A stretch of 64,000 nucleotides of DNA, from positions 1-64,000 of the IMG/VR virus record IMGVR_UViG_3300028797_000124; one strand, 5' to 3'. Made by a program: the position numbers and the translations under genes. The notes beneath the pieces were generated by a model. It did no database searches. It worked only from the letters and a program-made list of their open reading frames with translations, and was not told the origin of the DNA. This document shows, piece by piece, positions 13,102-61,551 of the stretch. Source of the stretch: a virus. Taxonomy: Duplodnaviria; Caudoviricetes. Position 1 is the first letter of the stretch; the number at the start of each line of letters is the position of its first letter.

Positions 13102-13112
13102 TTCAAGGATGG

Positions 13113-15039: not shown

Positions 15040-15060
15040 TTATGAAAGAGGTGATTGATT

Positions 15061-16415: not shown

Positions 16416-16429
16416 TAGGAGGTATTGAC

Positions 16430-16825
16430 ATGGCTAAAGAAAAGGATCCAGTGACAAAGGTTGTCGAAGATCATAAACCAAAGAACTTTAAGTTCAAATA
16501 TATCATCAAGGATGATGAGTTACTGAAAGAGCTTGAAGATGCAAAGTATGATATATCATCTCTTGATACTATCAACGATACAGATCTGACGGTAGCTGCA
16601 ATAAACGCGCCGTTTAAAGAGTATCCACGAGAGGTCGTAACATCATCAAAGAAACCAACACAAATTGAAGATGGAGTTTTACTATTCAAACAGATGACAA
16701 CAAAAACGGATAAGAAACTTCTCAATGTATGTGTAGGATTCTTCACACATGATAATCTTAGATATGTCTGCGTCAAGTTCGTTTATGAGCGATTTGACAT
16801 TATTGAAATATTCATTTTAACATAA
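16430..16825 (+). CDS. Hypothetical protein
   Basis: Start MAKEKD behind SD AGGAGGT. Confidence 0.75.
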   Translation: MAKEKDPVTKVVEDHKPKNFKFKYIIKDDELLKELEDAKYDISSLDTINDTDLTVAAINAPFKEYPREVVTSSKKPTQIEDGVLLFKQMTTKTDKKLLNVCVGFFTHDNLRYVCVKFVYERFDIIEIFILT

Positions 16826-16833
16826 TACGAAAC

Positions 16834-16856
16834 GGTGGGGGCGCGAAGCCCCCGCC
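16834..16856. terminator. GC-rich hairpin between convergent genes
   Basis: GGTGGGGGC-GCGAA-GCCCCCGCC. Confidence 0.65.
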
Positions 16857-16909
16857 ATTCCATATTATTTTTAAGAGAGGTGGTATGAACCCTAACGGAT
16901 TCTTTTTTC

Positions 16910-18007: not shown

Positions 18008-18025
18008 ATATTACCTCTCCTTTCC

Positions 18026-41386: not shown

Positions 41387-44257
41387 TTGGAAAATATGGA
41401 TAGAGACAAGACATATGAACGAGCTGTCAAGTTCATGAATAACGTTGCCAAGAAACGCAACGGTGTTTCCAATGTATACGTGTTTACTTCGGTTGATAAA
41501 GAAGGAAATGTTGTTGACGAGAAATACAGTATGAACCTTATGACTCGCTCCGGATTCTCCGAAATATATGCAAGCGGCGTTGCATTCGGTGCAAGAGATG
41601 ATAACAACAATACTGTCAGACTCTATGTTGGAACCGGCGTTGGTGAAACTCCATATTCTGTAACAGATACGGATCTGGAAACGATCGCATTTAACGGACT
41701 TGCAGCAACATTCACAACTACCAGCGATGACTTCATAAAGATCGATGGTAAGAGTAAGTCATATAAATACCCGATGTATTTCGCAAAGGGTGAGCATGAT
41801 GGTGAGGGTTTCATAACCCTCATCTCACGTTTCCTTATAGCTTACTACGATTACAATATTTCCAACTTCCCCGGAGAGTATGACTTGAGCGAGTATGGTA
41901 TCAAGCATAACAACACACTTTGGACACATTCCAAGATATATGATATGCGCGGAAATCCCGCAACTATTAGAAAGACTTCTAATGAAAGATTGTACATAAC
42001 CGTGTACATGTGTCTTTCATTCTACGAAAGTGTCATTATGAACGGTTGGTCAAACAATCGTTTTACTATGATTACCCGCAATGATATGATGTATGACCGC
42101 ATGGCGTGGTCTGCTCGTGTCAAAGTATACAAACGTGGAAACCGTATTGTCGATATTACCGACGGTGGCACTTCACGTACACAGGATACGTCTCAGAACA
42201 ACGCATATACAAACTCAACCATCGCACCGAGAATCATTCTGCATGATAATAATGCTGATACGTATCATACCGATACAAAGATTTTCGACGGTGGATATAT
42301 CGATGGTTACACGTTGTCTGAAACAGGTTTTCTGTGCATGGAACCTCAGTTCCTTCCCGTTCCAGAAGATGTGGAATTGATAAACTATAAAAGCGGAAAT
42401 GCCACAATATATTCTGGATTTGCAGATAAGTTTGGAACAAATCCTTCCTCGGGATATTCCAAAGCACAGTATCCTCAAATGACACATTTTTATGATGCTA
42501 ATGCTTATGTGTTCGACTGGAAATCCGGTGACTGGACATGTAAACTTGATATATATAATCCTGACAACAAGTGGTATGATGAAACATCTATGTCCACAAA
42601 CTGTGCCGTTCCAATATACTATTCTAACAACGGCGAAATCCTTACGGGTTATGTCTACCAGAATCTCAGAACAGATGACAAGATTATTCAGATCACATCA
42701 GGTGCTTCTACAGTATATGCGACAAACAGATATTGGGCAACTGCTGAAGATCAGAACAACCAAGATCCTAACAAGGGTTGGGTTTGGATTCGTGACTACT
42801 CGAATATCCCGTTGGCTTGTCAGACTGCAAGATACTGGATTACTAATACTAACACAGATTCACTCTCATTCAAACGTGAGTCGGATTGTTTCCAGCTTCT
42901 TGAAAAGGGTACTGTCAGCAATGGTTATGCACAATATCCTCAATATGGTGATCTGACTTATATCAGACCGATATGTGACAACTATGCATATGGTTGGTAT
43001 AAGCGTGGTAACAGAGTTTACGTTCCGGATGCTCCAGCAAGACCAATCTACACTGTTGGTGGTGATACTGATGAGACAATGACATATGGAAAGTGGATGG
43101 TTGTATTCCCATCATCCAACAATACAATCATTACCGTAGATATGACTCAAGCCACATCTGGCATAGTGTCTCCTCAGAATGTTCCAACACCATTCACGGG
43201 AAATGTTAACTCATTATCTCAAACACACCGTACTGAGAGTGGCACTGGTTTGATTTGTATGGAATCGACCAATACTGAAGAGTGTGTCGTAATTGATATG
43301 AGGCAAGGAGGATTCTCTCAGGCTGTTCATTCATGGAAACATGCATGTTGTATTTGGGGAACTAACAAGGTTGCTTACATCAATGCCGGTGGCTCAGATC
43401 CAAATGTATACATATTCAATTATGATACAAACCAGATAGAAGGAAATCCAATTCCTTTCCCTGCCGGTTTGACCGATATTCCGCATCTGTTCGGACACAC
43501 AAATTTCTTGTGGATGACCGATGGTTCTACATTCGGTTACGTATGTGATCTCAGAACACCAACTATCAGAAACCTTGAAGGTTTTGCATATGCGGGATTG
43601 TATGGAACCGGTTTGAATACCGTCAAGTATACTTGTGTTGATGATGTATTTATCGTGTACAAATATGATGAGTGTGGAAACAACTCAATCAAACTCGCAC
43701 ATTACATCAAACTGTCCGATCCCACAAATCCAATCAACATGGATGATTTCTCAACACGTACAACTACAGACTATATCGGAGGAAGAATCATATTCGATCT
43801 CAGATATACGAATAGATACACAAATGCTCAAAGCTTGCCGTCAGGAGCGATTGTATTAACAATCATGCGCGGTTGGGATAACAACTCTTCATCTACTCCA
43901 GCGGGTTGTGAATGTAGAGTGATTGACTTTGGTCAATATTTGTGGACTCATGAAGTTAAGTACTATGAGCATGCATCAAACAGTAACTTCGGAAACTTGT
44001 GTCTGTACGGTGAGAATATCATCCACAGATACAACAAAAAGATCCCACTCATAAATTATCTTCCAATCAAGCTTACTGGTAAAACCGATACGATTAATGC
44101 GATGAAATACATTAAGAATATAACCAGCAAGTCTTGGTTGATCGGTTATACAAATACTCCTTCTTGGGGTGATGGAACTGCTTCTCCAAGCGGTAAGCCA
44201 CCGGGAACTCCTCTTGCTGTTACTGATGGAGACGGCACAATTACTGGATGGAGTTGA
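41387..44257 (+). CDS. Putative tail-associated/receptor-binding protein, paralog A
   Basis: Shares N-terminal NxY..D..GNxVD..N.MT..G and C-terminal L.G.T.T.N with 44823 and 48485; aromatic, beta-rich middle. Confidence 0.6.
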   Translation: MENMDRDKTYERAVKFMNNVAKKRNGVSNVYVFTSVDKEGNVVDEKYSMNLMTRSGFSEIYASGVAFGARDDNNNTVRLYVGTGVGETPYSVTDTDLETIAFNGLAATFTTTSDDFIKIDGKSKSYKYPMYFAKGEHDGEGFITLISRFLIAYYDYNISNFPGEYDLSEYGIKHNNTLWTHSKIYDMRGNPATIRKTSNERLYITVYMCLSFYESVIMNGWSNNRFTMITRNDMMYDRMAWSARVKVYKRGNRIVDITDGGTSRTQDTSQNNAYTNSTIAPRIILHDNNADTYHTDTKIFDGGYIDGYTLSETGFLCMEPQFLPVPEDVELINYKSGNATIYSGFADKFGTNPSSGYSKAQYPQMTHFYDANAYVFDWKSGDWTCKLDIYNPDNKWYDETSMSTNCAVPIYYSNNGEILTGYVYQNLRTDDKIIQITSGASTVYATNRYWATAEDQNNQDPNKGWVWIRDYSNIPLACQTARYWITNTNTDSLSFKRESDCFQLLEKGTVSNGYAQYPQYGDLTYIRPICDNYAYGWYKRGNRVYVPDAPARPIYTVGGDTDETMTYGKWMVVFPSSNNTIITVDMTQATSGIVSPQNVPTPFTGNVNSLSQTHRTESGTGLICMESTNTEECVVIDMRQGGFSQAVHSWKHACCIWGTNKVAYINAGGSDPNVYIFNYDTNQIEGNPIPFPAGLTDIPHLFGHTNFLWMTDGSTFGYVCDLRTPTIRNLEGFAYAGLYGTGLNTVKYTCVDDVFIVYKYDECGNNSIKLAHYIKLSDPTNPINMDDFSTRTTTDYIGGRIIFDLRYTNRYTNAQSLPSGAIVLTIMRGWDNNSSSTPAGCECRVIDFGQYLWTHEVKYYEHASNSNFGNLCLYGENIIHRYNKKIPLINYLPIKLTGKTDTINAMKYIKNITSKSWLIGYTNTPSWGDGTASPSGKPPGTPLAVTDGDGTITGWS

Positions 44258-44263
44258 TGACTC

Positions 44264-44334
44264 ATGGCAAATGTATTCAGATCGAAAGAAGTATATAAAA
44301 ACTTTAGATATGATATTGACAAAACCAAGAAAGT
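44264..44334 (+). repeat. 71-bp perfect direct repeat, copy 1
   Basis: Identical to 47925-47995. Confidence 0.95.
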
Positions 44335-44806
44335 TGTCCCCGTTCAGGGTGTATACATTGCGAGCGAATATCGCCCGCCTTACTATAACAATCCTACATT
44401 GCGGATATATGAAATATCTTCTGTGCATGCAACCGTTGTTAGCTTTCAGGATGTCACCGCAACCAACGGCGAAGATCCAATGTACAAGATTCTCGATTTC
44501 AAAGTTGAACGATTGATTCCAAACCTCATCAACTATACCACGGGTTCTGCGAACGCTGGTGAAGATACCATGTACAAAATTCTCGATTTCCAGGTAAACA
44601 GATTGATCCCGTCATGTGAATTTTATGAATCGAAATCTCAGAATGCTGGTGAGGATACCATGTACAAAATTCTCGATTTCCGGGTAACAAGACTCAATCC
44701 TGGAGAAACATATTTCTATAAAGCAAAAGGAAATTCGACACCGGAGCCAATGCTCCGGTTGTCGTCTATTACTTCAGAATCCGCATTGGTGGAAAATTAC
44801 ACATAA
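44264..44806 (+). CDS. 180-aa repeat protein, paralog 1
   Basis: Three 30-aa repeats (GEDxMYKILDFxVxRLxP); termini shared with 47925. Confidence 0.75.
   Translation: MANVFRSKEVYKNFRYDIDKTKKVVPVQGVYIASEYRPPYYNNPTLRIYEISSVHATVVSFQDVTATNGEDPMYKILDFKVERLIPNLINYTTGSANAGEDTMYKILDFQVNRLIPSCEFYESKSQNAGEDTMYKILDFRVTRLNPGETYFYKAKGNSTPEPMLRLSSITSESALVENYT
44471..44700 (+). repeat. 90-bp-period tandem repeat (3 units)
   Basis: GARGAT..ATGTACAARATTCTCGATTTC at 44471, 44561 and 44651. Confidence 0.9.
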
Positions 44807-44822
44807 GAAAGGAGTGTATGTA

Positions 44823-47800
44823 ATGAAATTGCATTTAGAGCCAGCTCATGCATCAGAACCATTTCCTCAAGTTCTTGAAGATTTCATAAAGAATAATCCC
44901 AATATGAAATGTGAGAATCTCTATCTTTGTGAAAGTATAGATGTCGATGGTAACGTTGTTGATACAAAGATCGGTGTTAACCTATTGACAAATTATGGTC
45001 TTAAAGATCATTTTGTGGATGGCAACTCCCGTTATAATAACATGTATATCTGGCTTGGTTCAGGACAAACAGAGCCGGATCCAACGTCGGCATCACTTAC
45101 AACATACATATCTTCCCTTGGACAAGGTTCAGGCTATGAATATTGGTCAAACACGTTTTATGAATATACTTTTGACCAAGAGACATTATTATGGTCTGTG
45201 AAGAATATAATATCCAAAAATTACTGGGATTACACTGCTGGCAGCAATGGTGAGTATGAGATTTGGGAATTGGGTTTAGGTGCGTCACAGACATCTCTTA
45301 GAACCCATGCACTAATATACGATGAACATGGTCAACAAACCTGCATCGTTAAAAGACCCAATACCCGCTTGTATATTACTGCATACTGGGTTGCATCTGT
45401 TTCAATGGCAGAGGTTCCTGAGATGTATAAAAATGGAAAATATTTATATATCGATCCACATATGGCTATGCCAAATTATGGATATAAAACTGTGTACTGG
45501 TCAAATTTGACACGTGGTAAGTTGTATAATAACGATGCAAATTATGAATGGAGTGGTTCAAGATGGTCTTGGAATACTCATTCATATACCAATCTCGTCA
45601 CGAATGATGCTCGTCAAGCGCACATGGAATTGGGTCCTTCTGATCACAGTGCTTTCTGGGAAGGTAATTTTCTTTATTCTTCGGGTTGGTTGATTGCAGA
45701 AAGCAGAGATTGGGGTAGTCGATATCAGACGGATTTGAAAGACTGTGGATATTATGCAATGATGACATACGATTTGCTTCCCGAACCAGAAGAGATGGAA
45801 TCATATTGGGCATACACTAATTATTCATTCACATATATTCTTTCTGATCCAACTGATTACACCAATGGCGTTAATACCAATCATTGGAGTTTTCTGAGAT
45901 TGGATGGCAATTTTGGTGGAACACAGGCATATCGTAGAACCAGCAATAATCCAACGTCATGGTCGAGCACTAATGCAACGTTCCCGTGCACAGATTTCCA
46001 TATTACTGAATTGACGATGTATAATCACACGACCAAAGAATGGGATATTCCCGTTCCGTATAAGGATGAACCCAACACGATATATTGTGATCATTGGATG
46101 CGTTTCTACCAGACGCTCTGGATCAAGTATAAGGGAAACAGCATAAACGTATATGTTTTCATTAACATGTTTCCACACGATAGTTCTGGAACGCCGATTC
46201 CAAAGATATTGAGTTTCAATAATTCGAACATGGTTCTCGCTGGAACCGATGAATATTGGGATCCATCAACATATGTTGAAATACCAAATCTCAACTCGGT
46301 GCCTGTTGAATTACAACAGAAAAGATACTACGTCGTTGTATCCGGAACCGTCGCCGAACTTGTACCTTCGATGTCGAGAGCAGATTGGTTCAAGCACGAG
46401 ATTCGTCCTGTTAATAGTCCTTTCGAATTGACGCATGAAACAACCGGCATAATTCCACGTATGTTAAAACATAATTCTTACACAAGTTTCAACTCCAATT
46501 ACGACGAAAGTTATAATGGTCAATATACGTATGGAAGTATCCCACTTGTATCAAATACTAAGAAGTTTTTCTGTATAAACTGGATGTTGGTTTTCTGTGA
46601 TGAGAACTGGAATGTCACACGATATAATCTCCTTTTGGAAGATAAATATCCAGGATGTAGATACAGAAGATATATGACAGCTGATTGCGACAGAATACTT
46701 TGGTTTGCCACAAGAACCCGTACAAATCTTGAAAATGAGACAAGTGGTTCAAATAACACTTCCTCATATGCTGTTGCAGCAAACTGTTTCTCGATATGGA
46801 CGATAGTAGACGAAAACACAACTCCAACAAGAGTTGATCTTGATCTTTCAACAATGTGGACAGATGCATCATTGGTTAATAACAATACATGTTATCATAG
46901 ATACTCTTGGAGTGATGTTGGATATCTTGTTGTCGCAAAGAGAAGAACTGAACCGGAATTCGTATATGTTGATATATATGGAACAGGCAATGGTCCTGAG
47001 ATGCATCTTGTAACTGATGCAAAACACGCCAGGGCAATAGAACACACTCAATTTTGTATATATCAGGACATGAATTTGACAGAGGGTTCGAAATATGTGT
47101 TTAACATATTTGATATGTCATCAGGTACGGTTGATGATACGATTACTATCGATGATGGAACCACATATACCATTGATGGCACGTATGGATATAACGAACA
47201 TGTGTATGTCCGTGTTAAATCTTCAGCCAATCTTGAATATACTTATTATTACAATCGCAACACACACTCACTGGAAAAAATTGCAGATGCATTCGATTTC
47301 ATGGTTACAGACAGAATATACTGGCATTCTACCACAACCATCTATGATGACTATTGTATACTGAATCAAAGTCATAATGGTGGTGGACATTCATATATTA
47401 TACATGGAAACGAATGGCATAGGATCTTCCCAAGTGATACAGTTAATAACGTATCATCATATCAAAAATGTTGGGCATGCCTCAATACGATAAATGATGG
47501 AAAACAGTTGTTGATGGGTCTGTCTGGACGTTCGAGTACATCCAATACTTCATATGTACTTGATCTTGGTTTACTGCTCGACTCATCATCTAAGACCGAA
47601 GACTATGTCCCATACGGACATTTTGGTTCCAAAGATTGTACCGAAGGTTATGATATTACAGGTCCTGTTATTCCATATAATGATGGCATAATTGTAATGT
47701 CGGGAGCTGAAAGAAATAAAACATATGGTTCCAACACTAAGCTCGGAAGAATATGGTGGTTCCCTCCGGAGATGTGTTTGCGTCTTCACATGAAAGGAAC

Positions 47801-47918
47801 AACTCGCACACTCAACTCATACAATGCTCCAATAAGATGGTATCTCACAAAGAAAGTCAAGTGGGATGTTACAAACGATTTATCGAGATTGCTTCCGCAG
47901 AATAACGTTGGGGAGTGA
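44823..47918 (+). CDS. Putative tail-associated/receptor-binding protein, paralog B
   Basis: Paralogous termini as above; start behind SD AAAGGAG. Confidence 0.6.
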   Translation: MKLHLEPAHASEPFPQVLEDFIKNNPNMKCENLYLCESIDVDGNVVDTKIGVNLLTNYGLKDHFVDGNSRYNNMYIWLGSGQTEPDPTSASLTTYISSLGQGSGYEYWSNTFYEYTFDQETLLWSVKNIISKNYWDYTAGSNGEYEIWELGLGASQTSLRTHALIYDEHGQQTCIVKRPNTRLYITAYWVASVSMAEVPEMYKNGKYLYIDPHMAMPNYGYKTVYWSNLTRGKLYNNDANYEWSGSRWSWNTHSYTNLVTNDARQAHMELGPSDHSAFWEGNFLYSSGWLIAESRDWGSRYQTDLKDCGYYAMMTYDLLPEPEEMESYWAYTNYSFTYILSDPTDYTNGVNTNHWSFLRLDGNFGGTQAYRRTSNNPTSWSSTNATFPCTDFHITELTMYNHTTKEWDIPVPYKDEPNTIYCDHWMRFYQTLWIKYKGNSINVYVFINMFPHDSSGTPIPKILSFNNSNMVLAGTDEYWDPSTYVEIPNLNSVPVELQQKRYYVVVSGTVAELVPSMSRADWFKHEIRPVNSPFELTHETTGIIPRMLKHNSYTSFNSNYDESYNGQYTYGSIPLVSNTKKFFCINWMLVFCDENWNVTRYNLLLEDKYPGCRYRRYMTADCDRILWFATRTRTNLENETSGSNNTSSYAVAANCFSIWTIVDENTTPTRVDLDLSTMWTDASLVNNNTCYHRYSWSDVGYLVVAKRRTEPEFVYVDIYGTGNGPEMHLVTDAKHARAIEHTQFCIYQDMNLTEGSKYVFNIFDMSSGTVDDTITIDDGTTYTIDGTYGYNEHVYVRVKSSANLEYTYYYNRNTHSLEKIADAFDFMVTDRIYWHSTTTIYDDYCILNQSHNGGGHSYIIHGNEWHRIFPSDTVNNVSSYQKCWACLNTINDGKQLLMGLSGRSSTSNTSYVLDLGLLLDSSSKTEDYVPYGHFGSKDCTEGYDITGPVIPYNDGIIVMSGAERNKTYGSNTKLGRIWWFPPEMCLRLHMKGTTRTLNSYNAPIRWYLTKKVKWDVTNDLSRLLPQNNVGE

Positions 47919-47924
47919 TGTTGA

Positions 47925-47995
47925 ATGGCAAATGTATTCAGATCGAAAGAAGTATATAAAAACTTTAGATATGATATTGACAAAACCAAGAAAGT
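47925..47995 (+). repeat. 71-bp perfect direct repeat, copy 2
   Basis: Identical to 44264-44334. Confidence 0.95.
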
Positions 47996-48467
47996 CGTAG
48001 CTGTTCAAGGTGTATATGTCGCGAGTGAATACAGACCACCTTATTACAATGAACCCGGTATCCACATATATGAGATATCGGGTCAACATTGTACCATCGC
48101 AGATTTCAAAACCGAAGAGGTTGAAACTCAAGGCATGGAAACTGCTGGTATGTATATGTTTGATATCACTGAATCAGCATATACTCTTGAACGATATTCC
48201 ACTCAAAGTAAAGATGCAACACCAACAGAAACTGCTGGTATGTATATGTTTGATATCACTGAATCAGCATATACTCTTGAACGATATGAAAAGGATTATA
48301 TCGATACAGAGGGTATGGAAACAGCTGGTATGTATATGCTGGCTATTGTTGATTCTGGATATCGACTCGATATATACGGAAAGAAATCTTCCAACTCAAC
48401 ACCAGAACCCATACTTCGTTTATCATCACTCACATCGGAAGCATGTGTTGTTGAGAATTATACTTAA
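47925..48467 (+). CDS. 180-aa repeat protein, paralog 2
   Basis: Three 30-aa repeats (ETAGMYM..I..S.Y.L..Y); termini shared with 44264. Confidence 0.75.
   Translation: MANVFRSKEVYKNFRYDIDKTKKVVAVQGVYVASEYRPPYYNEPGIHIYEISGQHCTIADFKTEEVETQGMETAGMYMFDITESAYTLERYSTQSKDATPTETAGMYMFDITESAYTLERYEKDYIDTEGMETAGMYMLAIVDSGYRLDIYGKKSSNSTPEPILRLSSLTSEACVVENYT
48138..48377 (+). repeat. 90-bp-period tandem repeat (3 units)
   Basis: 48138-48197 is identical to 48228-48287; a third, diverged unit starts at 48318. Confidence 0.9.
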
Positions 48468-48484
48468 GAAAGGAAGGGATATTT

Positions 48485-51400
48485 ATGAATGAAATAAATG
48501 AATTCAAACCTGTCCCGAGACCCGCTTTTCAAGATATACCTTTCGATCCAACGGGCTTCCCCGAAAGTGTTGAGGAATTCGAAAGAAACTATGAAAAGAA
48601 ACATCCTAACGACTCTGCGATAGCACACAACATATATCACATCGTGGCAGAAGATTTGGATGGCAATATCGTTGATGAAGCTTTTGGTTTGAACATAATG
48701 ACCGATTATGGATTCTCTCAAAAGCACACGATGACTGATTCATACTATTCCGCACTATCCGGATTGTATCTTGGAGATGGTGAATGGTCCGGGGACCTTG
48801 ATCCAGCATCAAAAGTATTGGTTCATCCGATATCGTCTACAAGTGCAAACATGACATACACCGGATACAGTCATAATTTGACAAAATGGATTCCTGAGAA
48901 AGAAAGCAATCTTGTTAGGTTCAAATTATGTGAAGGATATTTCGATTATACGGTATGGTCTGAAGATCATACCGTAACAGAAATCGGTATCGCGTACAGA
49001 AATGGTGATATAAATAATCTTGTATTCCATGCCGCAGTATACGATGCCCAGGGTGAACGAACAACATTCGTCAAGAAAGTAAATCAGAAATTGACAATCA
49101 CAGTGTGGGGCAGAATAATGGTCCCTATTGTTAAAATTGTTAATTCATCCTGGGACAGGGGCATTCCATGTGTCATAAACTCTAACTCATTTTGCCAGTT
49201 GTATTATGGCAACTATTGGAGAGTGTTAACTGCAAACTTTTATCCGTTTGATTGGCATGATGGTGAGTGGTATAGCGCATGGTATGTTAGAAACTATGAT
49301 ACTGGCTCAATCACCGATCACGTATATAATGCATCCGGAACGTGTGGTATGAACATATTCATTGATGGAAGATATCAGTACGTTTCAGATATCTTATTTA
49401 ATTCAAGTTGGTCTTCTGGCAGGGCCTGTCAATATGATACGTATTACATTTTTGCAACGAAATTGAAGATGGCTGAACCGATACCTTTCGAAACGGACAA
49501 ATATCGTTTGGGAGGATACAACAGTGGAAGTACATCGGGTACTTATTGTCGTAGAAATCGTGACACTGCACGCGATCCGAATGGTCAACTTCCAATGACG
49601 GATATTCACGTAACTTCATTATCGATGTATAATGGTCAAACCGATGACTTCGATATCGATGTACCTATATATGAACCATACCCATATGTTGAACACGGCA
49701 TTTTCCTTTTACGTCTTCGCGTAAGAGAATATAACTATATTACATTTTTAAATAGATATGAATGGTATACCGTATACATCAATGAATCTCAGGAATTCCC
49801 GATAAAGAGCATCAGCAATGCCAGCAGAACATTCTATGTTACTGACGCTTATTGGGATTCTTCCACATGGGAAATTGTCCCAAACAATAGTTCAATATCC
49901 CGTGAACAAGGTTCGAAACGATATTTCATCATGTTTGAAGACAGTTTTCCTTGGCGGAGCGATGACTGGAACTATGGATATTATGGAGGGGAATACTATA
50001 CAAGAAATGTTTCCAGATATGATTGGACGCTTCCTCGTATTGATGTGAATAATCGCATTAGTGAAGACACCATGGATTTTGGTCGTCCAACCAATAATTC
50101 ATATAATTATTATTCACGTATTTACGCTGAATCATATTATTCTGGCAAGTATGTTAAGAACGAAACGATTGGTTATATTGCGGGCGACGGTTTCATAATG
50201 TATCCTGATGACTTTTCATTAGATACTCCTCAAACAAATATTCTGGGTAACTACTCGTGGAATAATTATAGTAAGAGCGCGAATTTCTCAGGATATAATC
50301 ACAGATATCCAATGGGTGGTATAGATTTACCAGCAGTCCCATCTGGATATAATAATGATGGCACGCATCCAGGAATGATATGGAATACTACACGGGGCAC
50401 ACATATTGCAAACTGCGGATATAATTCTTGGTCAAGGGGTGTAAGAGTTTACACACCAAGTTCAGATCCAACTGAAGCTCCATCATATGAAAACTTCACA
50501 TTCGATGCGGCGTGGTCCGATGTACCAGCAATGACTGATACACAAAACGGTTATGTCGTATTTTCATATGTTTCTGGTGCAAACAATGCAAACTGCACAT
50601 ATGTGGTCGAATACGATGTCGAAGGTGTCGCTCCAAATATGTACAAGGTCGAAGGATATCATCACGGTTGGGCTATTGATCTGACGAATTATTTTGTCGC
50701 GATAGACGCATCAGTCACAGACCATCTCCATATGGTCGTATATGATATGGCCAATCGTACGATTCATGCCGAATTCGATCTTCCCGAAGGATATACCTTC
50801 CAGGGTGGTGCGGGATGGAAAGATTATGTGTATATCCGTGTTGACCAATCTGGTGCCAAATCAACTTTCTTATACTATATCAATAGTGGTATTTATGAAA
50901 ATACACCACTCAATATCCCACAAATGAGATTGGATACAACTTCATACTATGCACACATACAACGTTCTGTGCCCGCAAATGGAAATATTGAAAGTTGTAT
51001 GGTTCTTCTCGCGTCAGATAGAGATATCGATAATGAAAACCATGTATTCTTCAAGGAATCAGATCCAACACATTCGGTTCAACTGATAAGAAACGAACGA
51101 TGTGAAACATCAAACTATATCAGATGGCAGAAAGCGTGGTTGGGTTATTCATCCGACAACAAACAACTGATATTGACATATGCTGGTAGAAGAAATATTG
51201 CCTTAGACTTAGGCTGGTGTCTGAAGCATGGAACCGTATCTACTCATTTAACATGGGGGGATTTGTATGATGAGTCTTCGAACACATATACTCCAATATA
51301 TTACAAAGGATACATATATTGTATGCAATTATATCGTTATGAATATTATGACGAGAAACATAGATTCCGCCATAGATACTGGAGACAGCCTGTCCAACAA

Positions 51401-51574
51401 TGGTTGAATCTCAAGATTGTTGGTACAACGTATACACCAAACTCAATGATGAATCCTGTTCGTATACAAGGTAACTTTGCAACATGGCTTTATCAGGATA
51501 CCAACAGAGGAACCGATGTGGCTCCAGAGCCATACGTTCCGCCACAGGAGGAAGAAGAAGATCCTCCATTATAA
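48485..51574 (+). CDS. Putative tail-associated/receptor-binding protein, paralog C
   Basis: Paralogous termini as above; Tyr/Trp-rich variable middle. Confidence 0.6.
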   Translation: MNEINEFKPVPRPAFQDIPFDPTGFPESVEEFERNYEKKHPNDSAIAHNIYHIVAEDLDGNIVDEAFGLNIMTDYGFSQKHTMTDSYYSALSGLYLGDGEWSGDLDPASKVLVHPISSTSANMTYTGYSHNLTKWIPEKESNLVRFKLCEGYFDYTVWSEDHTVTEIGIAYRNGDINNLVFHAAVYDAQGERTTFVKKVNQKLTITVWGRIMVPIVKIVNSSWDRGIPCVINSNSFCQLYYGNYWRVLTANFYPFDWHDGEWYSAWYVRNYDTGSITDHVYNASGTCGMNIFIDGRYQYVSDILFNSSWSSGRACQYDTYYIFATKLKMAEPIPFETDKYRLGGYNSGSTSGTYCRRNRDTARDPNGQLPMTDIHVTSLSMYNGQTDDFDIDVPIYEPYPYVEHGIFLLRLRVREYNYITFLNRYEWYTVYINESQEFPIKSISNASRTFYVTDAYWDSSTWEIVPNNSSISREQGSKRYFIMFEDSFPWRSDDWNYGYYGGEYYTRNVSRYDWTLPRIDVNNRISEDTMDFGRPTNNSYNYYSRIYAESYYSGKYVKNETIGYIAGDGFIMYPDDFSLDTPQTNILGNYSWNNYSKSANFSGYNHRYPMGGIDLPAVPSGYNNDGTHPGMIWNTTRGTHIANCGYNSWSRGVRVYTPSSDPTEAPSYENFTFDAAWSDVPAMTDTQNGYVVFSYVSGANNANCTYVVEYDVEGVAPNMYKVEGYHHGWAIDLTNYFVAIDASVTDHLHMVVYDMANRTIHAEFDLPEGYTFQGGAGWKDYVYIRVDQSGAKSTFLYYINSGIYENTPLNIPQMRLDTTSYYAHIQRSVPANGNIESCMVLLASDRDIDNENHVFFKESDPTHSVQLIRNERCETSNYIRWQKAWLGYSSDNKQLILTYAGRRNIALDLGWCLKHGTVSTHLTWGDLYDESSNTYTPIYYKGYIYCMQLYRYEYYDEKHRFRHRYWRQPVQQWLNLKIVGTTYTPNSMMNPVRIQGNFATWLYQDTNRGTDVAPEPYVPPQEEEEDPPL

Positions 51575-56099: not shown

Positions 56100-59000
56100 A
56101 TGGCTCAAGATAAAGTTCAGCTCAAACGTGAAGAAGTCGTTGGAAATGATGTTGTGTTGCAGGATATAAATCCTAAGACCAAGACCAATTCCATTACAGA
56201 TTCTGCCAAAGGAGTTCCGTTAGATCAGACTCTTGCATTGATCAAGAACATGATTAACAACAAACTCTCACGAGTTGTAAACTCTGTGAATGGCAAAACT
56301 GGTATTGTTATACTTGATGCAAATGATGTTGGTCTTGGAAATGTTGACAACATTTCTTTCGGCGATATCAAGCGTTGGGTTATAGAATATTTGGGTGATA
56401 TCTTCGGTTCGAAGAGAATAATCCTCAGGGACTACCTCTCCCAGATTCATGAGATACTCGGCACGAATGACAAGATCTACGCAGATACTCCATTCTATGC
56501 CCAGGCTGGCGATGCGACGAACAATGACTTCATCGCATACATCGGTTACATATATTGGGATGAAACTACATCCTCATTGAGAGAGGAACACAAGGAAATC
56601 AAGGTCATTGGTTTCACTGACGAGTCTCTCGTATACAATACAAACTGTGATATCGATCCGTATCATCCTGATGATCACAGGAATCTTTCAGGTGGTGGAC
56701 TTGCTGTAAACATCTGGTCTAAGGAGGATGCCCTCAAGATCAGGCGTGCTGAGGGTCTCTTTACAAGAGACGGGTATGATCCTGCTGTTCTTAATGACAC
56801 GGGTCTTTATATCGATAAGAGTAAAGTTGTTCCCAATGTATACTTCTTCGATGGAGTATATGGAACTCTTACGGGTGAAGGTACCGGTATGCACAATATT
56901 GATGCTCTCGTATATTGGTCAAACGACCCACATGATACTACCGAAAGCAACCTTCCAATTCTCAATATCACGATAAATGGTCAGGCAATCGGAATGACAT
57001 CGACTGCGGGTGGAGATCCTGTATACACGCTTCATCATCCATCTGATCTTCCTCTTAAAGTTGGAGATATCATTCTCACAAACTTTGCTTTCGATCAGTA
57101 TATCAATCCCGATGATGCATCTCACAGAGAAAATGTTCTTTACCCAAGAATGCTTGACTCGTTGACATGCCGTCAACCTTCTCTCGGTGTTGTAACTCAG
57201 GTTGCTGATACAACTAATGATACGCCGTGTATAATCGATTTTAAACCACGAAGACCAAACGTTGGTCACGGCTTGAAACTGATTATAACCGACAGTGCTT
57301 CTGGAGTTGGTCCGGAAGATTCTGAGATTGGACTTGATCTCATGGAAGGTACTATTACAATGGGTGATGGCACTAATATTGATACCAATGATGGAAACAA
57401 TGTTTCGGGTATCAATGCTATAGACAAACATGATCCAATATCCAGATCTCCTCGTAGTTCTCAGGCAAAGCATCTGTACACTGTATATCCAACCGGAAAG
57501 AGTTCGGATTTGATCGGTGGAAGCATCGATGTAGATTCATCATTCATTCTTCCAAATTTCTCAATGTGCATAATTCCATCGGCCCTTAATAAAGCTTCGA
57601 GTGAACCAGCGATCAAGAACTGGAATCCTACATCACCAATGTCAAACACTCATGCTGGTGAAGTTCTCGGTAACGCCCGCAAGTTTAACATGGTTGGTGT
57701 GAACCTTGCAAAGGTTATTATGGATACAAATGTTGGTGATGATGATCACGCATTTGCAAGAAATGTTTCCGGTCTGAGAGTTAATACAAGTGATGACTTA
57801 TTCGACGATGAGTGGTATGGATATGGTTCAGGTATAGATACTATACCAAACTATCTGACATCTGGTGGTATCTCTGTTAACGTCGGCGACTTCCTTGGAA
57901 TAGGCACACCAACAGAACTTTCAGCAGCTCCTGCTGAAAAAGGTAGCTACTATAACGAGGGTAAAGTCAATGTACGTATTGACAGAATGCAAGGTCTTAA
58001 CGGTGTTGCTGGAAACAGGCTTGCTGTTAATATCGCCGGTGGATATTCATACGCTCCGGAAGGGATTACGCATAACTGGCTTGAGGGTGGTCTCACATTT
58101 GTTGATGGTGGTACCCGCGCTCCCGCTCAGGGTGTTCTTGCAGTTAATACCGCAGAGGAGGCTTCTGGTCTTGGTATTAAGAACTCATATAGAGTCAATG
58201 TTAGACATACCAACTGGGGTAATCGTATAATGGCTGACACTTTCAACAACGTTCTGGTTGTTAAACCTGCCAAGTTTACCGAATCTTCGACAGAAAGGGC
58301 ATCACTTACAAAGTCTGGTCTTGAGGTTCACAAACAGATTCAAGAAGAAGATTTTGCAAATAAGATAACATTCACAAACATATACAATCAGAGAATGTGG
58401 TTATCTGAAGGACAACTCCATGACGATATAGTCCAGAACCCATCCAACTTTGATACTACTCACATATACATCGCGGGAGGAAAGCGTTTCATATATGCTG
58501 AACCTCAAGGACAACAAACAGAAATAAGTTTGTTCATGTACTACTCGGATGAATCCGAATATAACGCGATTCTCACATGGATTAGAACAGGAAATGATTC
58601 TGATGTTCCGGATGCAACCTGGCCCATCCACGGATATACACTCACACCAAATGAACACACAACAGCAAATGATGAATGTCTGGCAATTCTTCGGAGACAG
58701 TGTCATGTGTTGATCGAGGAATATCCAAGTATATCGAATGATACCAGATATAGACTAAAGGCTTCTATTTCCGAACCAACAACATCTGCAGATCTTCGTT
58801 TTCCAGATCTTGATCACGATGGCAATGTTGATGCTACAGAGGCATCATCTGTACTTGCTTATTTCTCATTCTTAGTTACGGTTACGCGAGTATACTCAAC
58901 TACAGTCGGTGGTCAAAAGGTGTTCTACACAGATCCAGGACTGACCACTCCACTCGAACCCGTTGTGGGCAGAGGATACATGGATATGAATGATTATCTG

Positions 59001-59906
59001 GAGGATTCGGAACACGCAGGACACATATATTATATGCCATATAATGCGGTAAAGGATCCAGGATCTGATATCGTATATCTTAAGAAGTACGAATTCGATC
59101 CGGGTAGATCAGCAACACTTCAGGATGTTATGTATGCCGATGTTGATAGAGACGGTCGTATTGATGCTGTAGATGGATCCCGCATATTGACATACTATGC
59201 AAACTGTTCATCCGGAAAGTATCCTGGTATGACAGCGGAAGAATCATGGCGGGAATATCTAAGAGAAGCTATGGGTATCATTGTTGGTAGTGGTGCCCGT
59301 GAGGTTTATCAAGTATTGGATATGATATACGATCCAGGTGTTCGCGTTAGATATAATGAACAGAAGGGTCTTACAACATTCCCCAACTACTTTGGAAACA
59401 CAGCGTATGATACTCAGACACTCATGGAAAATGATATGAAGGATGCGCTTGCGATAAAGATTGCGGATACCACTTCGGGTATGTTTGAATTCGATCCTGC
59501 TACTGCAGGTGGTTTGAGATTTGGTTCCAATGGATATCTTGCCGTAAGAGTCAACAACAACAATCATTATTCATCAATCCTTCCAATCAAAAACAATCCA
59601 GCACATATTGATGATCTCAGCACAGGTTCTCGTGGTCTGAGAATATATAATACTGATAGTGCTTTCAATGTACTCGGTATTCAACTCTCAAGAGACGGAT
59701 CTCTCGATAATGGTGAACTGAAGATCGATGCCCAGGGATGCCTTAGACTTTCTGGAGCAATCCGCCCAGATGTTAAGAAACTTAAATTCAAATGCGGTGC
59801 ACAAGAAGTTGAGTACGATGGTAACGATGAAGTTACTATCGAATTTGGTCCGGGTATGATCGTTACGGAACACAGCATAACATCAGAAGCACATTCACAA
59901 CTTTAA
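56100..59906 (+). CDS. Tail fibre-like protein carrying a dockerin domain
   Basis: Fibre motif VNSVNGKTGIVILDANDVGLGNVDN; many GL-x-GxLxV beta-spiral-like repeats; two dockerin Ca-loop/helix motifs near the C-terminus. Confidence 0.75.
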   Translation: MAQDKVQLKREEVVGNDVVLQDINPKTKTNSITDSAKGVPLDQTLALIKNMINNKLSRVVNSVNGKTGIVILDANDVGLGNVDNISFGDIKRWVIEYLGDIFGSKRIILRDYLSQIHEILGTNDKIYADTPFYAQAGDATNNDFIAYIGYIYWDETTSSLREEHKEIKVIGFTDESLVYNTNCDIDPYHPDDHRNLSGGGLAVNIWSKEDALKIRRAEGLFTRDGYDPAVLNDTGLYIDKSKVVPNVYFFDGVYGTLTGEGTGMHNIDALVYWSNDPHDTTESNLPILNITINGQAIGMTSTAGGDPVYTLHHPSDLPLKVGDIILTNFAFDQYINPDDASHRENVLYPRMLDSLTCRQPSLGVVTQVADTTNDTPCIIDFKPRRPNVGHGLKLIITDSASGVGPEDSEIGLDLMEGTITMGDGTNIDTNDGNNVSGINAIDKHDPISRSPRSSQAKHLYTVYPTGKSSDLIGGSIDVDSSFILPNFSMCIIPSALNKASSEPAIKNWNPTSPMSNTHAGEVLGNARKFNMVGVNLAKVIMDTNVGDDDHAFARNVSGLRVNTSDDLFDDEWYGYGSGIDTIPNYLTSGGISVNVGDFLGIGTPTELSAAPAEKGSYYNEGKVNVRIDRMQGLNGVAGNRLAVNIAGGYSYAPEGITHNWLEGGLTFVDGGTRAPAQGVLAVNTAEEASGLGIKNSYRVNVRHTNWGNRIMADTFNNVLVVKPAKFTESSTERASLTKSGLEVHKQIQEEDFANKITFTNIYNQRMWLSEGQLHDDIVQNPSNFDTTHIYIAGGKRFIYAEPQGQQTEISLFMYYSDESEYNAILTWIRTGNDSDVPDATWPIHGYTLTPNEHTTANDECLAILRRQCHVLIEEYPSISNDTRYRLKASISEPTTSADLRFPDLDHDGNVDATEASSVLAYFSFLVTVTRVYSTTVGGQKVFYTDPGLTTPLEPVVGRGYMDMNDYLEDSEHAGHIYYMPYNAVKDPGSDIVYLKKYEFDPGRSATLQDVMYADVDRDGRIDAVDGSRILTYYANCSSGKYPGMTAEESWREYLREAMGIIVGSGAREVYQVLDMIYDPGVRVRYNEQKGLTTFPNYFGNTAYDTQTLMENDMKDALAIKIADTTSGMFEFDPATAGGLRFGSNGYLAVRVNNNNHYSSILPIKNNPAHIDDLSTGSRGLRIYNTDSAFNVLGIQLSRDGSLDNGELKIDAQGCLRLSGAIRPDVKKLKFKCGAQEVEYDGNDEVTIEFGPGMIVTEHSITSEAHSQL
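58806..59216 (+). other. Dockerin domain (two Ca-binding loop-helix repeats separated by an insert)
   Basis: DLDHDGNVDATEASSVLAYF and ADVDRDGRIDAVDGSRILTYYANCSSG, 111 aa apart. Confidence 0.75.
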
Positions 59907-59917
59907 GGAGGTAGCAT

Positions 59918-60412
59918 ATGTCCGAAACTGTCAAAATGACTCTTAATCTGGACAACTCCCTCGAATATGCGGATGGAGGCTCGGGTCCTTTAAGAGTAAA
60001 GAAATCTCTGAAGTCGGGAAATACTTTATCATTTGAATCAGATGGATTATATGCAGAAGCAATACCAGGACAGCCCGGTTCCACAGGAACCGGGTATCCT
60101 GATAACTATCGCTCTGCGAACGGTGTAATGTCAGGTGTTGCAACTCCAGAAAGTATGAACTCGGTACCGAAAAGAATGGTTGGTCCAAGTATAATGCATC
60201 GTATATTTACAGCTTCAAGTCCAGATGGTTCGGACATACAACTCAGAACTATCGATAGAGTATATCCTGGCGATTTGTATCGCGTAAAAGATACAACACA
60301 TGGCAATTGGAATTATTACATAATCACAAAGGTTGCGTCAGACAACAGAGTTGTTACTGGTCATACTGGTGAGGTGGCTATAATTCCTTTAACACAAGAA
60401 GACGTAAACTAA
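59918..60412 (+). CDS. Short fibre-like protein 1
   Basis: N-terminus MSETVKMTLNLDN..GNTLSFESDGLYA is related to the next two ORFs. Confidence 0.55.
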   Translation: MSETVKMTLNLDNSLEYADGGSGPLRVKKSLKSGNTLSFESDGLYAEAIPGQPGSTGTGYPDNYRSANGVMSGVATPESMNSVPKRMVGPSIMHRIFTASSPDGSDIQLRTIDRVYPGDLYRVKDTTHGNWNYYIITKVASDNRVVTGHTGEVAIIPLTQEDVN

Positions 60413-60425
60413 AGGAGGTGTTTAT

Positions 60426-60821
60426 ATGCCGGAGACAATTAAGATTACTTTAGATCCCGATGGTCAGTCTATTGGATTCAGCAACAATTCAATGGTACTT
60501 AAATTGTCAGCTAAAGCAAACAACGGTCTTTCATTTTCAGACGGTAAGTTGGTTGCAACAAAAGCTCCCGATGGTTCAGGAGGTTCTGGTGGTACTATGA
60601 ACACTCCTGGAAATGCAATAGGTCCTGTAGATGCGACGGAGAACACATCTCTTAATACGGTGGGTTTCAATTCTACGGTTTCTCGCCACAAGAAATATAC
60701 CGGAACGAATTCTTGGCTTCAAACAAATGATGGTCCGGTTATGACAAAGAACTCGAATGGTCAGATGGTACCAAATGGATCTATTGCACATTACATGATA
60801 TTGCACGCAACAGGAGGTTGA
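60426..60821 (+). CDS. Short fibre-like protein 2
   Basis: MPETIKITLDPDG..NNGLSFSDGKLVA..DGSGG. Confidence 0.55.
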   Translation: MPETIKITLDPDGQSIGFSNNSMVLKLSAKANNGLSFSDGKLVATKAPDGSGGSGGTMNTPGNAIGPVDATENTSLNTVGFNSTVSRHKKYTGTNSWLQTNDGPVMTKNSNGQMVPNGSIAHYMILHATGG

Positions 60822-60825
60822 TGAC

Positions 60826-61551
60826 ATGTCAGAAAAGATAGTTATCGGTCTTGACCTCAACAACGGACTTCACGTTGATAGTGAAGATAAAGTTGGAGTT
60901 TACTATGAACAAAACGGAAACATGCATCTCGAAACAGACCCCGACCCAACAGACGGTAAGAATGGTATATACGTTGAAAATCTGAATGGTGCTGATGGTT
61001 CAGGTGGTGCTTCAAGATATGACGGTTGGACTATGAAGCCAGGTACTGGTTGGAATCTGAATGATTCAAGTCAGACTATAAATAATTTCATAGATATGGA
61101 TAGAGATGTTGTAAATCTCATATTCACATTCGGTCTATATAAAGTAACTACCCGCCACCCTACATCTATCTCATACAGTTCAGCTGTTAAAGATGTTCGT
61201 GCAATATGTAATGAAATTGTTGCACCTGTATACTACTCTCCTTCAAGCTATACCAGTTTCAAACCTGGAGCAGGAGAGTTGATCCAGCTTGTAAAGAATC
61301 CAACATTCAGAACGGTTCCATACACTGGAGGAACTGGTTCAACAATTGCTGTTGAAAGTGGCAATCGTATTGGAAACGACAATCTGGAAACAGCAGTAAT
61401 GTTCGTGATTATGGATATCGCATATTCACCCAATAACATCTACTGGGTAACAAGCATGAACCTGTGCTGTATATATTCAACCGTATCAGACTTTGTGGTT
61501 GGTCAGAGTTATTCGGGATCACAATTATTCCAGCCACCTGGTTACGTATAA
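60826..61551 (+). CDS. Short fibre-like protein 3
   Basis: MSEKIVIGLDLNNGLHV..NGIYV..DGSGG. Confidence 0.55.
   Translation: MSEKIVIGLDLNNGLHVDSEDKVGVYYEQNGNMHLETDPDPTDGKNGIYVENLNGADGSGGASRYDGWTMKPGTGWNLNDSSQTINNFIDMDRDVVNLIFTFGLYKVTTRHPTSISYSSAVKDVRAICNEIVAPVYYSPSSYTSFKPGAGELIQLVKNPTFRTVPYTGGTGSTIAVESGNRIGNDNLETAVMFVIMDIAYSPNNIYWVTSMNLCCIYSTVSDFVVGQSYSGSQLFQPPGYV

What the first reader, a model, noticed from the sequence alone, without database searches (positions are those of the whole stretch)
56100..59906. Phage fibre with a Ruminococcus-type dockerin: possible adsorption via cellulosome cohesins
Seen: a fibre-like gene in a structural operon carries two loop-helix repeats, DLDHDGNVDATEASSVLAYF (58806-58865) and ADVDRDGRIDAVDGSRILTYYANCSSG (59136-59216), near its C-terminal end. 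Known: dockerins are duplicated DxDxDGxxDxxD Ca-loop-plus-helix units that bind cohesins. The DAxDAS.(V/I)L.YYA..S(T/S)G form resembles, from memory, Ruminococcus flavefaciens dockerins, including those reported to bind the cell-wall-anchored scaffoldin ScaE. Inference: the phage captured a host dockerin and displays it on a fibre to plug into surface cohesins. That would use the cellulosome as a receptor or tether which the host could hardly mutate without losing fibre degradation. I am not aware of a described phage receptor system of this kind.
Basis: partly seen in the sequence, partly recalled or inferred. Interest (0 to 1): 0.95.

Follow-up and report, generated by a model that had tools for sequence, protein, structure and literature searches.

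The report
Dockerin plug in jumbo-phage tail fibre
A giant phage from cattle rumen carries, inside a tail-fibre-like protein, a genuine copy of the calcium-dependent "plug" (dockerin) that fibre-digesting Ruminococcus bacteria use to clip proteins onto cell-surface "sockets" (cohesins), so it may attach to its host through those sockets; no binding has been measured and I found no paper describing this.

Summary
ORF 56100-59906 (1268 aa) holds both motifs at the stated coordinates. It passes Pfam Dockerin_1 (30.8 bits, cut-off 22.9). In an AlphaFold2 model (pLDDT 92) the two repeats pack into one dockerin despite a conserved ~72-aa beta insert between them. The best structural match is the R. 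flavefaciens ScaH group-4 dockerin (8AJY; Z 10.1, 84/84 residues, rmsd 2.4 A, 31% identity). That dockerin binds the wall-anchored ScaE cohesin. The match includes the extra helix 4 typical of ScaE-binding dockerins.

The gene lies in the fibre cluster of a ~260-kb rumen jumbo phage. The split dockerin is conserved in about 40 full-length homologues down to ~30% identity, so it is an old, maintained module, not a recent capture. Shine-Dalgarno use and the lysin architecture point to a Gram-positive host.

Cohesin binding, virion location and host identity remain untested, and the host is not assigned. A siphovirus-like contig independently carries an unsplit dockerin on its distal tail protein. 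This scan reached the same reading on other DNA (e1-5689170, e1-5690025). No paper describing it was found in the held library.

The parts
56100..59906 (+). Fibre-like structural gene, 1268 aa (P0001)
   Evidence: The frame is open. There are 254 homologues, many on 250-270 kb contigs. Synteny is conserved in four relatives.
56148..56369 (+). N-terminal tail-fibre / minor-tail motif (aa 17-90)
   Evidence: It gives weak PHROG hits to minor tail and virion structural families, E 2.5e-4 to 8e-3. It is the most conserved stretch of the family and supplied the patterns used.
56100..58049 (+). Shared N-terminal module (about aa 1-650), also found joined to other C-terminal halves
   Evidence: Many homologues cover only 50-57% of the query. 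Loci match residues 1-437 up to 1-655 only.
58314..59336 (+). Confidently modelled globular core (aa ~739-1079) that contains the dockerin
   Evidence: In model m7f8505221368, block means of pLDDT over this stretch are mostly about 85-96 (71-81 at its first 30 residues). Before it most blocks are below 50 (one 20-residue stretch reaches 72-86), and after it all are below 70, mostly below 60.
58806..58865 (+). Dockerin repeat 1: Ca loop D903-E914 followed by helix 1 (aa 912-927)
   Evidence: P902 and D903 are invariant in 42 homologues. Loop positions 1, 3, 5, 9 and 12 are conserved.
58884..59099 (+). Beta-rich insert (aa 929-1000) between the two dockerin repeats
   Evidence: DSSP gives strands at model residues 70-141 with pLDDT 95-98. 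The insert is conserved throughout the family. The full split module is found only in about 10 representative clusters, all of them fibre proteins.
59136..59216 (+). Dockerin repeat 2: Ca loop D1014-D1025 followed by helix 3 (aa 1023-1037)
   Evidence: D1014 and D1025 are invariant. It is 57% identical over 30 aa to a secreted bacterial dockerin.
59235..59273 (+). Extra C-terminal helix (aa 1046-1058, invariant W1050), equivalent to helix 4 of group-2/4 dockerins
   Evidence: Helix at model residues 187-199. The structural alignment to 8AJY covers model residues 40-202 and all 84 dockerin residues. PMC12270676 describes helix 4 as distinctive of group-2/4 dockerins.
59337..59903 (+). C-terminal fibre-repeat region (aa 1080-1268)
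   Evidence: It has conserved G-L-x repeats. Monomer pLDDT is low, which would fit an oligomeric shaft, but that is an inference.
41387..51574 (+). Three ~1000-aa paralogous tail-fibre genes with two 180-aa genes between them (context)
   Evidence: phrog_4176 'tail fiber protein' is hit by all three.
59918..61551 (+). Three small downstream genes (164, 131, 241 aa) with fibre-like N-terminal repeats (context)
   Evidence: Translations are. The same genes follow the fibre gene in relatives. No Pfam or PHROG hit.

Best explanation
ORF 56100-59906 encodes a tail-fibre-type protein of a ~260-kb rumen jumbo phage. Its globular core (aa ~739-1079) displays a complete, calcium-binding dockerin of the Ruminococcus flavefaciens group-4 kind, split by a conserved beta insert.

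Shown here: the dockerin sequence and predicted fold, its conservation across the family, the fibre-gene context, and Gram-positive-type signals in the phage.

Inferred: the fibre is on the virion, and its dockerin plugs in a Ca-dependent way into a cohesin exposed on the host cell surface (a ScaE-like anchoring cohesin or another surface cohesin). This would give reversible or primary adsorption. Variable residues on the dockerin helices would set which cohesin is bound.
For: 1. Pfam Dockerin_1 scores above its cut-off with two stretches.
2. The AF2 model has pLDDT 92.4. VIA-align gives 8AJY ScaH dockerin at Z 10.1, rmsd 2.4 A, 84/84 residues, 31% identity, and the next ten matches are all dockerins. 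Foldseek gives probability 1.0 and TM 0.72 on the dockerin. The match is reproduced in the 629-aa model at Z 8.1.
3. The nearest solved relatives by sequence are ScaH, group-2 and CttA dockerins. All of these bind the sortase-anchored ScaE cohesin (PMC5301203; PMC12270676). The helix 4 that marks these groups is present.
4. Both repeats and the insert are conserved in 42 homologues at 32-96% identity. Ca-ligand positions 1, 3, 5, 9 and 12 are conserved, while helix-surface positions 7, 10, 11, 15, 18 and 22 vary.
5. Fibre identity: an N-terminal tail motif, neighbouring phrog_4176 fibre paralogues, conserved synteny, and an N-terminal half that is shared while C-terminal halves are swapped, as in receptor-binding proteins.
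6. Host type: 56 of 77 ORFs have a Shine-Dalgarno core. The endolysin is Amidase_2 plus a ~290-aa C-terminal part. A 2714-aa tail protein carries lysozyme, NlpC/P60 and SH3_3.
7. Habitat: ruminant gut metagenomes.
8. Independent parallel: a siphovirus-like contig has a distal tail protein ending in an unsplit dockerin (46.6 bits), 42% identical to the jumbo-phage repeat 2 plus helix 4. A second such cluster exists.
Against: No binding data exist and no host has been identified. MAG bins holding relatives disagree: Parabacteroides, Clostridia, Bacteroidales, Spirochaetaceae. The Gly-Arg pair used by group-4 dockerins to recognise ScaE is replaced by A-T and A-V here. The 72-aa insert and the upstream domain pack against the dockerin, and I could not check whether the cohesin-binding face stays free. 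Variable surface positions fit co-evolution with a partner, but they fit absence of constraint equally well. Virion presence is inferred from gene context only. Dockerin-like modules also occur outside cellulosomes (own knowledge, Peer et al. 2009), and 179 of 400 sampled Clostridia genomes carry cohesins. The partner therefore need not be cellulosomal.
Confidence: 0.5

Rival explanations
1. The dockerin binds cohesins of cellulosomes in general (free, on plant particles, or on non-host cells). This would keep virions in the fibre-attached biofilm where hosts live, a tether comparable to Ig-like or carbohydrate-binding decorations. Infection itself would use another receptor, read by the C-terminal tip or by the other fibres.
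For: The dockerin is internal and about 200 aa of fibre follow it. The phage has at least four other large fibre genes. Cohesins are common among Clostridia, in 179 of 400 genomes.
Against: The module sits in the swapped, specificity-type half of the protein. Its closest relatives are dockerins that bind the cell-anchored ScaE cohesin, not the enzyme-integrating cohesins.
Confidence: 0.2
2. The dockerin is an assembly plug within the virion. It docks into a cohesin-like beta-sandwich of another phage protein and so wires the fibre network together.
For: Several large neighbouring structural proteins have no known domains.
Against: No Pfam cohesin was found in this 117.8-kb record at E <= 1. 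None was found in two 61-64% complete relatives that carry the orthologous fibre. The record is only 44% complete and divergent cohesins escape Pfam, so this rival is weakened, not excluded.
Confidence: 0.12
3. The module has lost partner binding and serves only as a calcium-stabilised structural knob of the fibre.
For: The Gly-Arg recognition pair is absent and the helix-surface positions are variable. The dockerin is tightly integrated with the insert and an upstream domain in one confident core.
Against: The full dockerin architecture, including helix 4 and an invariant Trp, is kept over deep divergence. An independent phage lineage places an unsplit dockerin at the end of a distal tail protein, where a purely structural role is less likely.
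Confidence: 0.1
4. The protein is not a virion component. It would be a phage-encoded product released at lysis or displayed on the infected cell, one that docks onto host scaffoldins.
For: Virion location was not tested.
Against: There is no signal peptide. The N-terminus carries a tail-fibre motif. The gene is embedded among fibre genes with conserved order.
Confidence: 0.05

Closest known systems
R. flavefaciens ScaH dockerin (group 4, type III; PDB 8AJY, complex with the ScaE cohesin)
   Same: It has two Ca-loop-helix repeats plus the extra helix 4. The superposition covers 84/84 residues at rmsd 2.4 A, Z 10.1, 31% identity. It is also the best sequence hit.
   Different: The phage repeats start 111 residues apart, against about 39 in ScaH (alignment), because of a beta insert. 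The Gly-Arg recognition pair is missing. The carrier is a phage fibre without a signal peptide. Binding is untested.
CttA / ScaB X-dockerins of R. flavefaciens (PDB 4IU2, 4WKZ)
   Same: These are group-4 dockerins that carry insertions and bind the cell-anchored ScaE cohesin (PMC5301203). They give profile E 1e-5 and Z 6.4.
   Different: Their insertions buttress an upstream X module. The phage insert is a separate, larger beta unit with no detected relative outside the fibre family.
Modular phage receptor-binding fibres (conserved N-terminal anchor, exchangeable C-terminal specificity part)
   Same: The N-terminal ~650 aa are shared with fibres that have other C-terminal halves. The gene lies among paralogous fibre genes.
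   Different: As far as I know, known specificity parts recognise glycans or outer-membrane or wall proteins through dedicated folds. A borrowed host assembly module (dockerin) is not described in the papers I could search.
'Evolved' distal tail proteins (Dit) of Gram-positive siphophages that carry added binding modules (own knowledge)
   Same: The siphovirus-like contig G254:C15 has a Dit whose N-terminal 149 aa match Streptococcus and Latilactobacillus phage Dits, with a module added to it.
   Different: The added module there is a dockerin, not a carbohydrate-binding module. That phage is unrelated to the jumbo phage.

Membership tests
Dockerin (Pfam PF00404) | Score above the curated gathering threshold | tested here: met
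   30.8 bits against 22.9, two stretches; 34.2 bits on aa 891-1067.
Dockerin (Pfam PF00404) | Two Ca-binding loops with D/N/E at loop positions 1, 3, 5, 9, 12, each followed by a helix | tested here: met
   D903, D905, D907, D911, E914 and D1014, D1016, D1018, D1022, D1025. Helices follow each loop in the model.
Dockerin (Pfam PF00404) | The two repeats pack into one dockerin fold | tested here: met
   This is met in a predicted model only: 8AJY Z 10.1, 84/84 residues, rmsd 2.4 A, and ten further dockerins at Z 5-6.6; Foldseek TM 0.72.
Dockerin (Pfam PF00404) | Repeats joined by a short linker | tested here: not met
   The loop starts are 111 residues apart and a 72-aa beta insert lies between helix 1 and loop 2. 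R. flavefaciens group-1 linkers reach 37-45 aa (PMC2930009).
Dockerin (Pfam PF00404) | Ca-dependent binding to a cohesin | not testable with these tools
   No cognate cohesin is known and no co-fold was run.
R. flavefaciens group-4 (ScaE-binding) dockerins | Additional C-terminal helix 4 | tested here: met
   The helix at aa 1046-1058 is aligned within the 84/84-residue superposition. The definition comes from PMC12270676.
R. flavefaciens group-4 (ScaE-binding) dockerins | Gly-Arg pair at the cohesin-recognition positions of both repeats | tested here: not met
   Positions 10-11 are A-T and A-V here. Arg at position 11 occurs in only 4-5 of 42 homologues. The feature comes from PMC5301203.
R. 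flavefaciens group-4 (ScaE-binding) dockerins | Internal sequence symmetry of the two repeats | tested here: inconclusive
   About 8 of 20 positions are identical between the two motifs, read. I had no reference threshold.
R. flavefaciens group-4 (ScaE-binding) dockerins | Borne by a secreted bacterial protein of R. flavefaciens | tested here: not met
   The carrier is a phage structural protein on a virus record.
Phage tail fibre / receptor-binding protein | Tail-fibre N-terminal motif and position in a fibre gene cluster | tested here: met
   PHROG minor-tail hits are weak, E ~1e-4. Neighbours hit phrog_4176. Synteny is conserved.
Phage tail fibre / receptor-binding protein | Present in virions as an oligomeric fibre | not tested
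   No proteome or oligomer prediction is available. Low monomer pLDDT of the flanks is only suggestive.

The most novel reading that the evidence does not exclude
A widespread family of rumen jumbo phages, and independently some siphoviruses, adsorbs by mimicking the host's own cellulosome assembly plug. A fibre-borne group-4-type dockerin would dock into the sortase-anchored anchoring cohesin (ScaE-like), a receptor the host cannot lose without detaching its cellulosome. Phage and cohesin specificities would then co-evolve at the dockerin helix positions.
Probability: 0.35. Interest if true: 0.9.

Novelty: new variant of a known kind. Interest (0 to 1): 0.72.

Why it matters
If the dockerin binds a host cohesin, this is a phage receptor system built from the host's own protein-assembly module. 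It would tie phage predation to the main fibre-degrading machinery of the rumen. It predicts a fitness trade-off: resistance would cost cellulosome attachment. It would also offer a way to assign hosts to uncultured jumbo phages by matching dockerin-cohesin specificity. The idea is directly testable with the cohesin arrays, ELISA and ITC already used for R. flavefaciens. A dockerin tolerating a 72-residue insert is also of interest for designer cellulosomes.

Tried and rejected
- Host by gene affinity. The ABC exporter (4571-6157) and the endolysin C-terminal part have only unnamed metagenomic relatives, mostly on phage-sized contigs.
- Host by MAG bin. The bins are contradictory, and those MAGs have no cohesin.
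- No tRNA genes were found.
- CRISPR spacers. Window 1-20000 was searched against 400 sampled Clostridia genomes. It gave only short matches, and the three I inspected lie outside any repeat array. The other 98 kb and other taxa were not searched.
- Search for a ScaE-like (LPXTG) cohesin among 14 small cohesin ORFs. None had the motif. They are cohesins with Cu_amine_oxidN1, SLH-like or membrane anchors.
- G254 as a prophage host. The dockerin-Dit contig has 49.7% GC against 38.9% at the cohesin locus of the same MAG, so the link rests on binning only.
- MT836339.1, labelled 'Bacteriophage sp.', matched the dockerin but looks bacterial: an LRR-dockerin protein beside a CCA-adding enzyme.
- GenBank phages. 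No match to the fibre or to its dockerin region.
- The alignment A3 was too divergent for a pattern scan.
- BFVD gave no significant fold match.
- Weak Z 2.3-3.2 matches of aa ~759-812 to tailspike neck and collagen trimerisation domains are not relied on.
- The 96-98% complete relatives G407-G409 share only the fibre's N-terminal part and show no Pfam dockerin. Their lack of a cohesin therefore says nothing.
- Complex prediction was not used, because no cognate cohesin was at hand and a stand-in would pass or fail for uninformative reasons.
- Metatranscriptome contigs cover parts of the gene at 93-98% identity. DNA carry-over cannot be excluded, so expression is not shown.
Full report
**The observation**

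ORF 56100-59906 (+) is open and encodes 1268 aa. They are the only two D-x-[DN]-x-[DN]-G sites in the protein.

Pfam Dockerin_1 matches at 30.8 bits (E 3.3e-7, gathering cut-off 22.9) with two stretches. EF-hand models stay below their cut-offs.

**The genome**

The window is the first 64 kb of a 117,790-bp IMG/VR virus record that CheckV rates 44% complete. Relatives of its genes sit on 250-290 kb contigs. This is therefore a jumbo phage of about 260 kb.

It encodes:
- split multisubunit RNA polymerase beta pieces, a tail sheath, a terminase and topoisomerase II;
- a run of fibre genes: three ~1000-aa paralogues hitting phrog_4176 'tail fiber protein', a 1494-aa protein with an ALK/LTK glycine-rich domain, and a 1448-aa protein on the opposite strand.

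The finding's ORF follows these genes. Three small genes with fibre-like N-terminal repeats come after it. The same gene order is kept in four relatives. GenBank phages hold no relative.

**Fibre identity**

Residues 17-90 give weak PHROG hits to minor tail, tail and virion structural families. This is the most conserved stretch of the family.

Of 254 homologues, about 45 are full length. Many others share only the N-terminal 50-57% and carry other C-terminal halves, a few of which have adenovirus-fibre-type or other dockerin annotations. A conserved anchor with an exchangeable distal half is the usual layout of receptor-binding proteins, and the dockerin lies in the exchangeable half. Virion location is nevertheless inferred, not shown.

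**The dockerin fold**

I folded aa 860-1080 with an alignment of 40 homologues. Mean pLDDT was 92.4 and pTM 0.80. The order of elements is:
- Ca loop 1 and helix 1 (aa 912-927);
- a beta-rich insert (aa 929-1000);
- a short helix, then Ca loop 2 and helix 3 (aa 1023-1037);
- a further helix (aa 1046-1058).

An all-against-representatives structural search put the R. flavefaciens ScaH dockerin (8AJY) first: Z 10.1, rmsd 2.4 A, all 84 residues aligned, 31% identity, spanning aa 899-1061. Ten further dockerins followed at Z 5.0-6.6, and unrelated folds came only below that. Foldseek also ranks 8AJY first, with probability 1.0 and TM 0.72 on the dockerin. A second model of aa 640-1268 reproduces the match at Z 8.1.

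The two loops therefore do not fold as independent EF-hands. They form one dockerin from which the insert loops out. All of this rests on predicted models.

**Which kind of dockerin**

By sequence, the best solved relatives are the ScaH dockerin (E 5e-7; 1.3e-10 with a family profile), a group-2 dockerin of FD-1, and the CttA X-dockerin. Next come clostridial type I dockerins and R. bromii Amy16.

[quoted passage not shown] The CttA and ScaB dockerins also carry three insertions. According to PMC12270676, 8AJY is the CohScaE-DocScaH complex, and helix 4 is distinctive of group-2 and group-4 dockerins. The phage module has that helix, with an invariant Trp (W1050).

Two things differ:
- The repeats start 111 residues apart, against about 39 in ScaH.
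- The Gly-Arg recognition pair is replaced by A-T and A-V.

**Conservation**

In 42 full-length homologues (32-96% identity), both repeats, the insert and helix 4 are all present. P902, D903, D1014, D1025 and W1050 are invariant.

Loop positions 1, 3, 5, 9 and 12, Gly6 and the hydrophobic positions 8, 16 and 17 are conserved. Positions 7, 10, 11, 15, 18 and 22 are highly variable. This is the pattern of a maintained Ca-binding scaffold with a variable surface. It fits changing partner specificity, but it fits an unconstrained surface equally well.

A HMMER scan of 1.84 billion representatives found the full split module in only about ten clusters, all fibre proteins of 970-1255 aa. Some 200 ordinary dockerins matched repeat 2 alone at 35-57% identity. 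The module is therefore old within this phage family, and 'capture' cannot be dated or given a direction.

**Host and habitat**

Relatives come from rumen and ruminant-gut metagenomes. Sequencing runs holding related sequence are labelled bovine or goat gut, and the 24 listed runs come from 15 studies in all.

Three features are typical of phages of Gram-positive Bacillota:
- 56 of 77 ORFs have a Shine-Dalgarno core at the right distance, which argues against a Bacteroidota host.
- The endolysin is Amidase_2 plus a ~290-aa C-terminal part.
- A 2714-aa tail protein combines tail lysozyme, NlpC/P60 and SH3_3.

The bins holding relatives (Parabacteroides, Clostridia, Bacteroidales, Spirochaetaceae) contradict each other and carry no weight. 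I could not name the host. Gene-affinity searches returned only unnamed metagenomic proteins, and one spacer search found nothing.

**A partner inside the phage?**

No Pfam cohesin is present in this record. None is present in two partial relatives that carry the orthologous fibre. With 56% of the genome missing, and with divergent cohesins escaping Pfam, this weakens the virion-assembly reading but does not exclude it.

**An independent parallel**

A profile of the phage dockerin region, run against 400 sampled Clostridia genomes, hit one place strongly (E 6.5e-12). It is a 232-aa protein lying between a tape-measure gene and a 'Prophage endopeptidase tail' gene.
- Its first ~149 aa match distal tail proteins of Streptococcus and Latilactobacillus phages.
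- Its last ~85 aa are an unsplit dockerin (46.6 bits), 42% identical to the jumbo-phage repeat 2 plus helix 4.

The 33-kb contig looks like a whole temperate siphovirus. Its GC differs by 11 points from another contig of the same MAG, so the host link is by binning only. That MAG has two adjacent surface cohesin proteins, and no other Pfam dockerin was found in it, although only three first-look candidates were scored and the MAG may be incomplete. Its GTDB family includes a genome with secreted, Thr-linker dockerin proteins 47% identical to the Dit dockerin and 57% identical (over 30 aa) to the jumbo-phage repeat 2. A second Dit-dockerin cluster exists. Dockerins on phage tail-tip proteins thus arose at least twice.

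**Literature and earlier notes**

Nine full-text searches found no paper on a dockerin-bearing phage fibre or on cohesin-mediated adsorption. One paper mentions dockerin domains on a putative ANME virus contig (PMC13452462). UniProt auto-annotates at least one 'Dockerin domain-containing protein' in an uncultured phage.

Earlier follow-ups of this scan reached the same reading on other DNA (e1-5689170, e1-5690025). One reports plug-and-socket wiring among megaphage fibres (e1-5363729). I treated these notes as leads only.

**Verdict**

The dockerin is real, is of the ScaE-binding class by fold, is old and conserved, and sits in the specificity half of a fibre-type protein of a rumen jumbo phage that probably infects a Gram-positive host. 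I consider adsorption through a host-surface cohesin the best explanation, at about 0.5. Three rivals remain open: tethering to cellulosomes in the biofilm, a virion-assembly plug, and a purely structural knob. The decisive experiments are simple binding assays and host assignment.

Noticed in passing
L083:973-1671 (= G254:C15:13477-14175): A siphovirus-like 33-kb contig binned in a Clostridia MAG has a distal tail protein (Dit) fused to an unsplit C-terminal dockerin. It lies between the tape-measure gene and a Prophage_tail gene. It is the only Pfam dockerin found in that MAG (three first-look candidates scored), and the MAG also has two adjacent surface cohesin proteins.
   Followed up: partly
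window 4571-6157: A 528-aa ABC exporter (fused permease and ATPase) is conserved in this jumbo-phage family: 160 relatives at E <= 1e-30, several on 250-290 kb contigs. Its function in a phage is unexplained.
   Followed up: partly
L063-L067 (genome contigs): Contigs of this phage family are binned into MAGs named Parabacteroides sp., Clostridia bacterium, Bacteroidales and Spirochaetaceae. These are probably mis-binned phage DNA in public MAGs. G001:C17 is 71% identical to window 17050-19252.
   Followed up: partly
L089 (MT836339.1:1730-4455): A GenBank record labelled 'UNVERIFIED: Bacteriophage sp.' encodes a signal-peptide LRR protein with a C-terminal dockerin next to a CCA-adding enzyme and a HAD hydrolase. 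It looks bacterial rather than viral.
   Followed up: partly
window 59918-61551: Three small proteins (164, 131, 241 aa) downstream of the fibre share an N-terminal fibre-like repeat with each other and with the fibre's C-terminal region. They are syntenic in relatives and have no family hit.
   Followed up: no
G000:C1:99319-100644 (L070:1319-2644): The endolysin is Amidase_2 plus a ~290-aa C-terminal part. That part has more than 1200 metagenomic relatives, some in proteins of ~670-750 aa. It may be a wall-binding domain useful for host assignment.
   Followed up: partly
L090, L093, L094 (Clostridia genomes G248, G308, G328): Small surface-anchored single-cohesin proteins sit directly beside dockerin-ending proteins in several gut Clostridia. 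Overall, 179 of 400 sampled Clostridia genomes have a cohesin hit, so non-cellulosomal cohesin-dockerin pairs are common.
   Followed up: no
window 56846-60500: Short contigs from two rumen metatranscriptome runs (X22, X24) cover parts of the fibre gene, including the dockerin region, at 93-98% identity. This hints at transcription of close relatives, but DNA carry-over is not excluded.
   Followed up: partly
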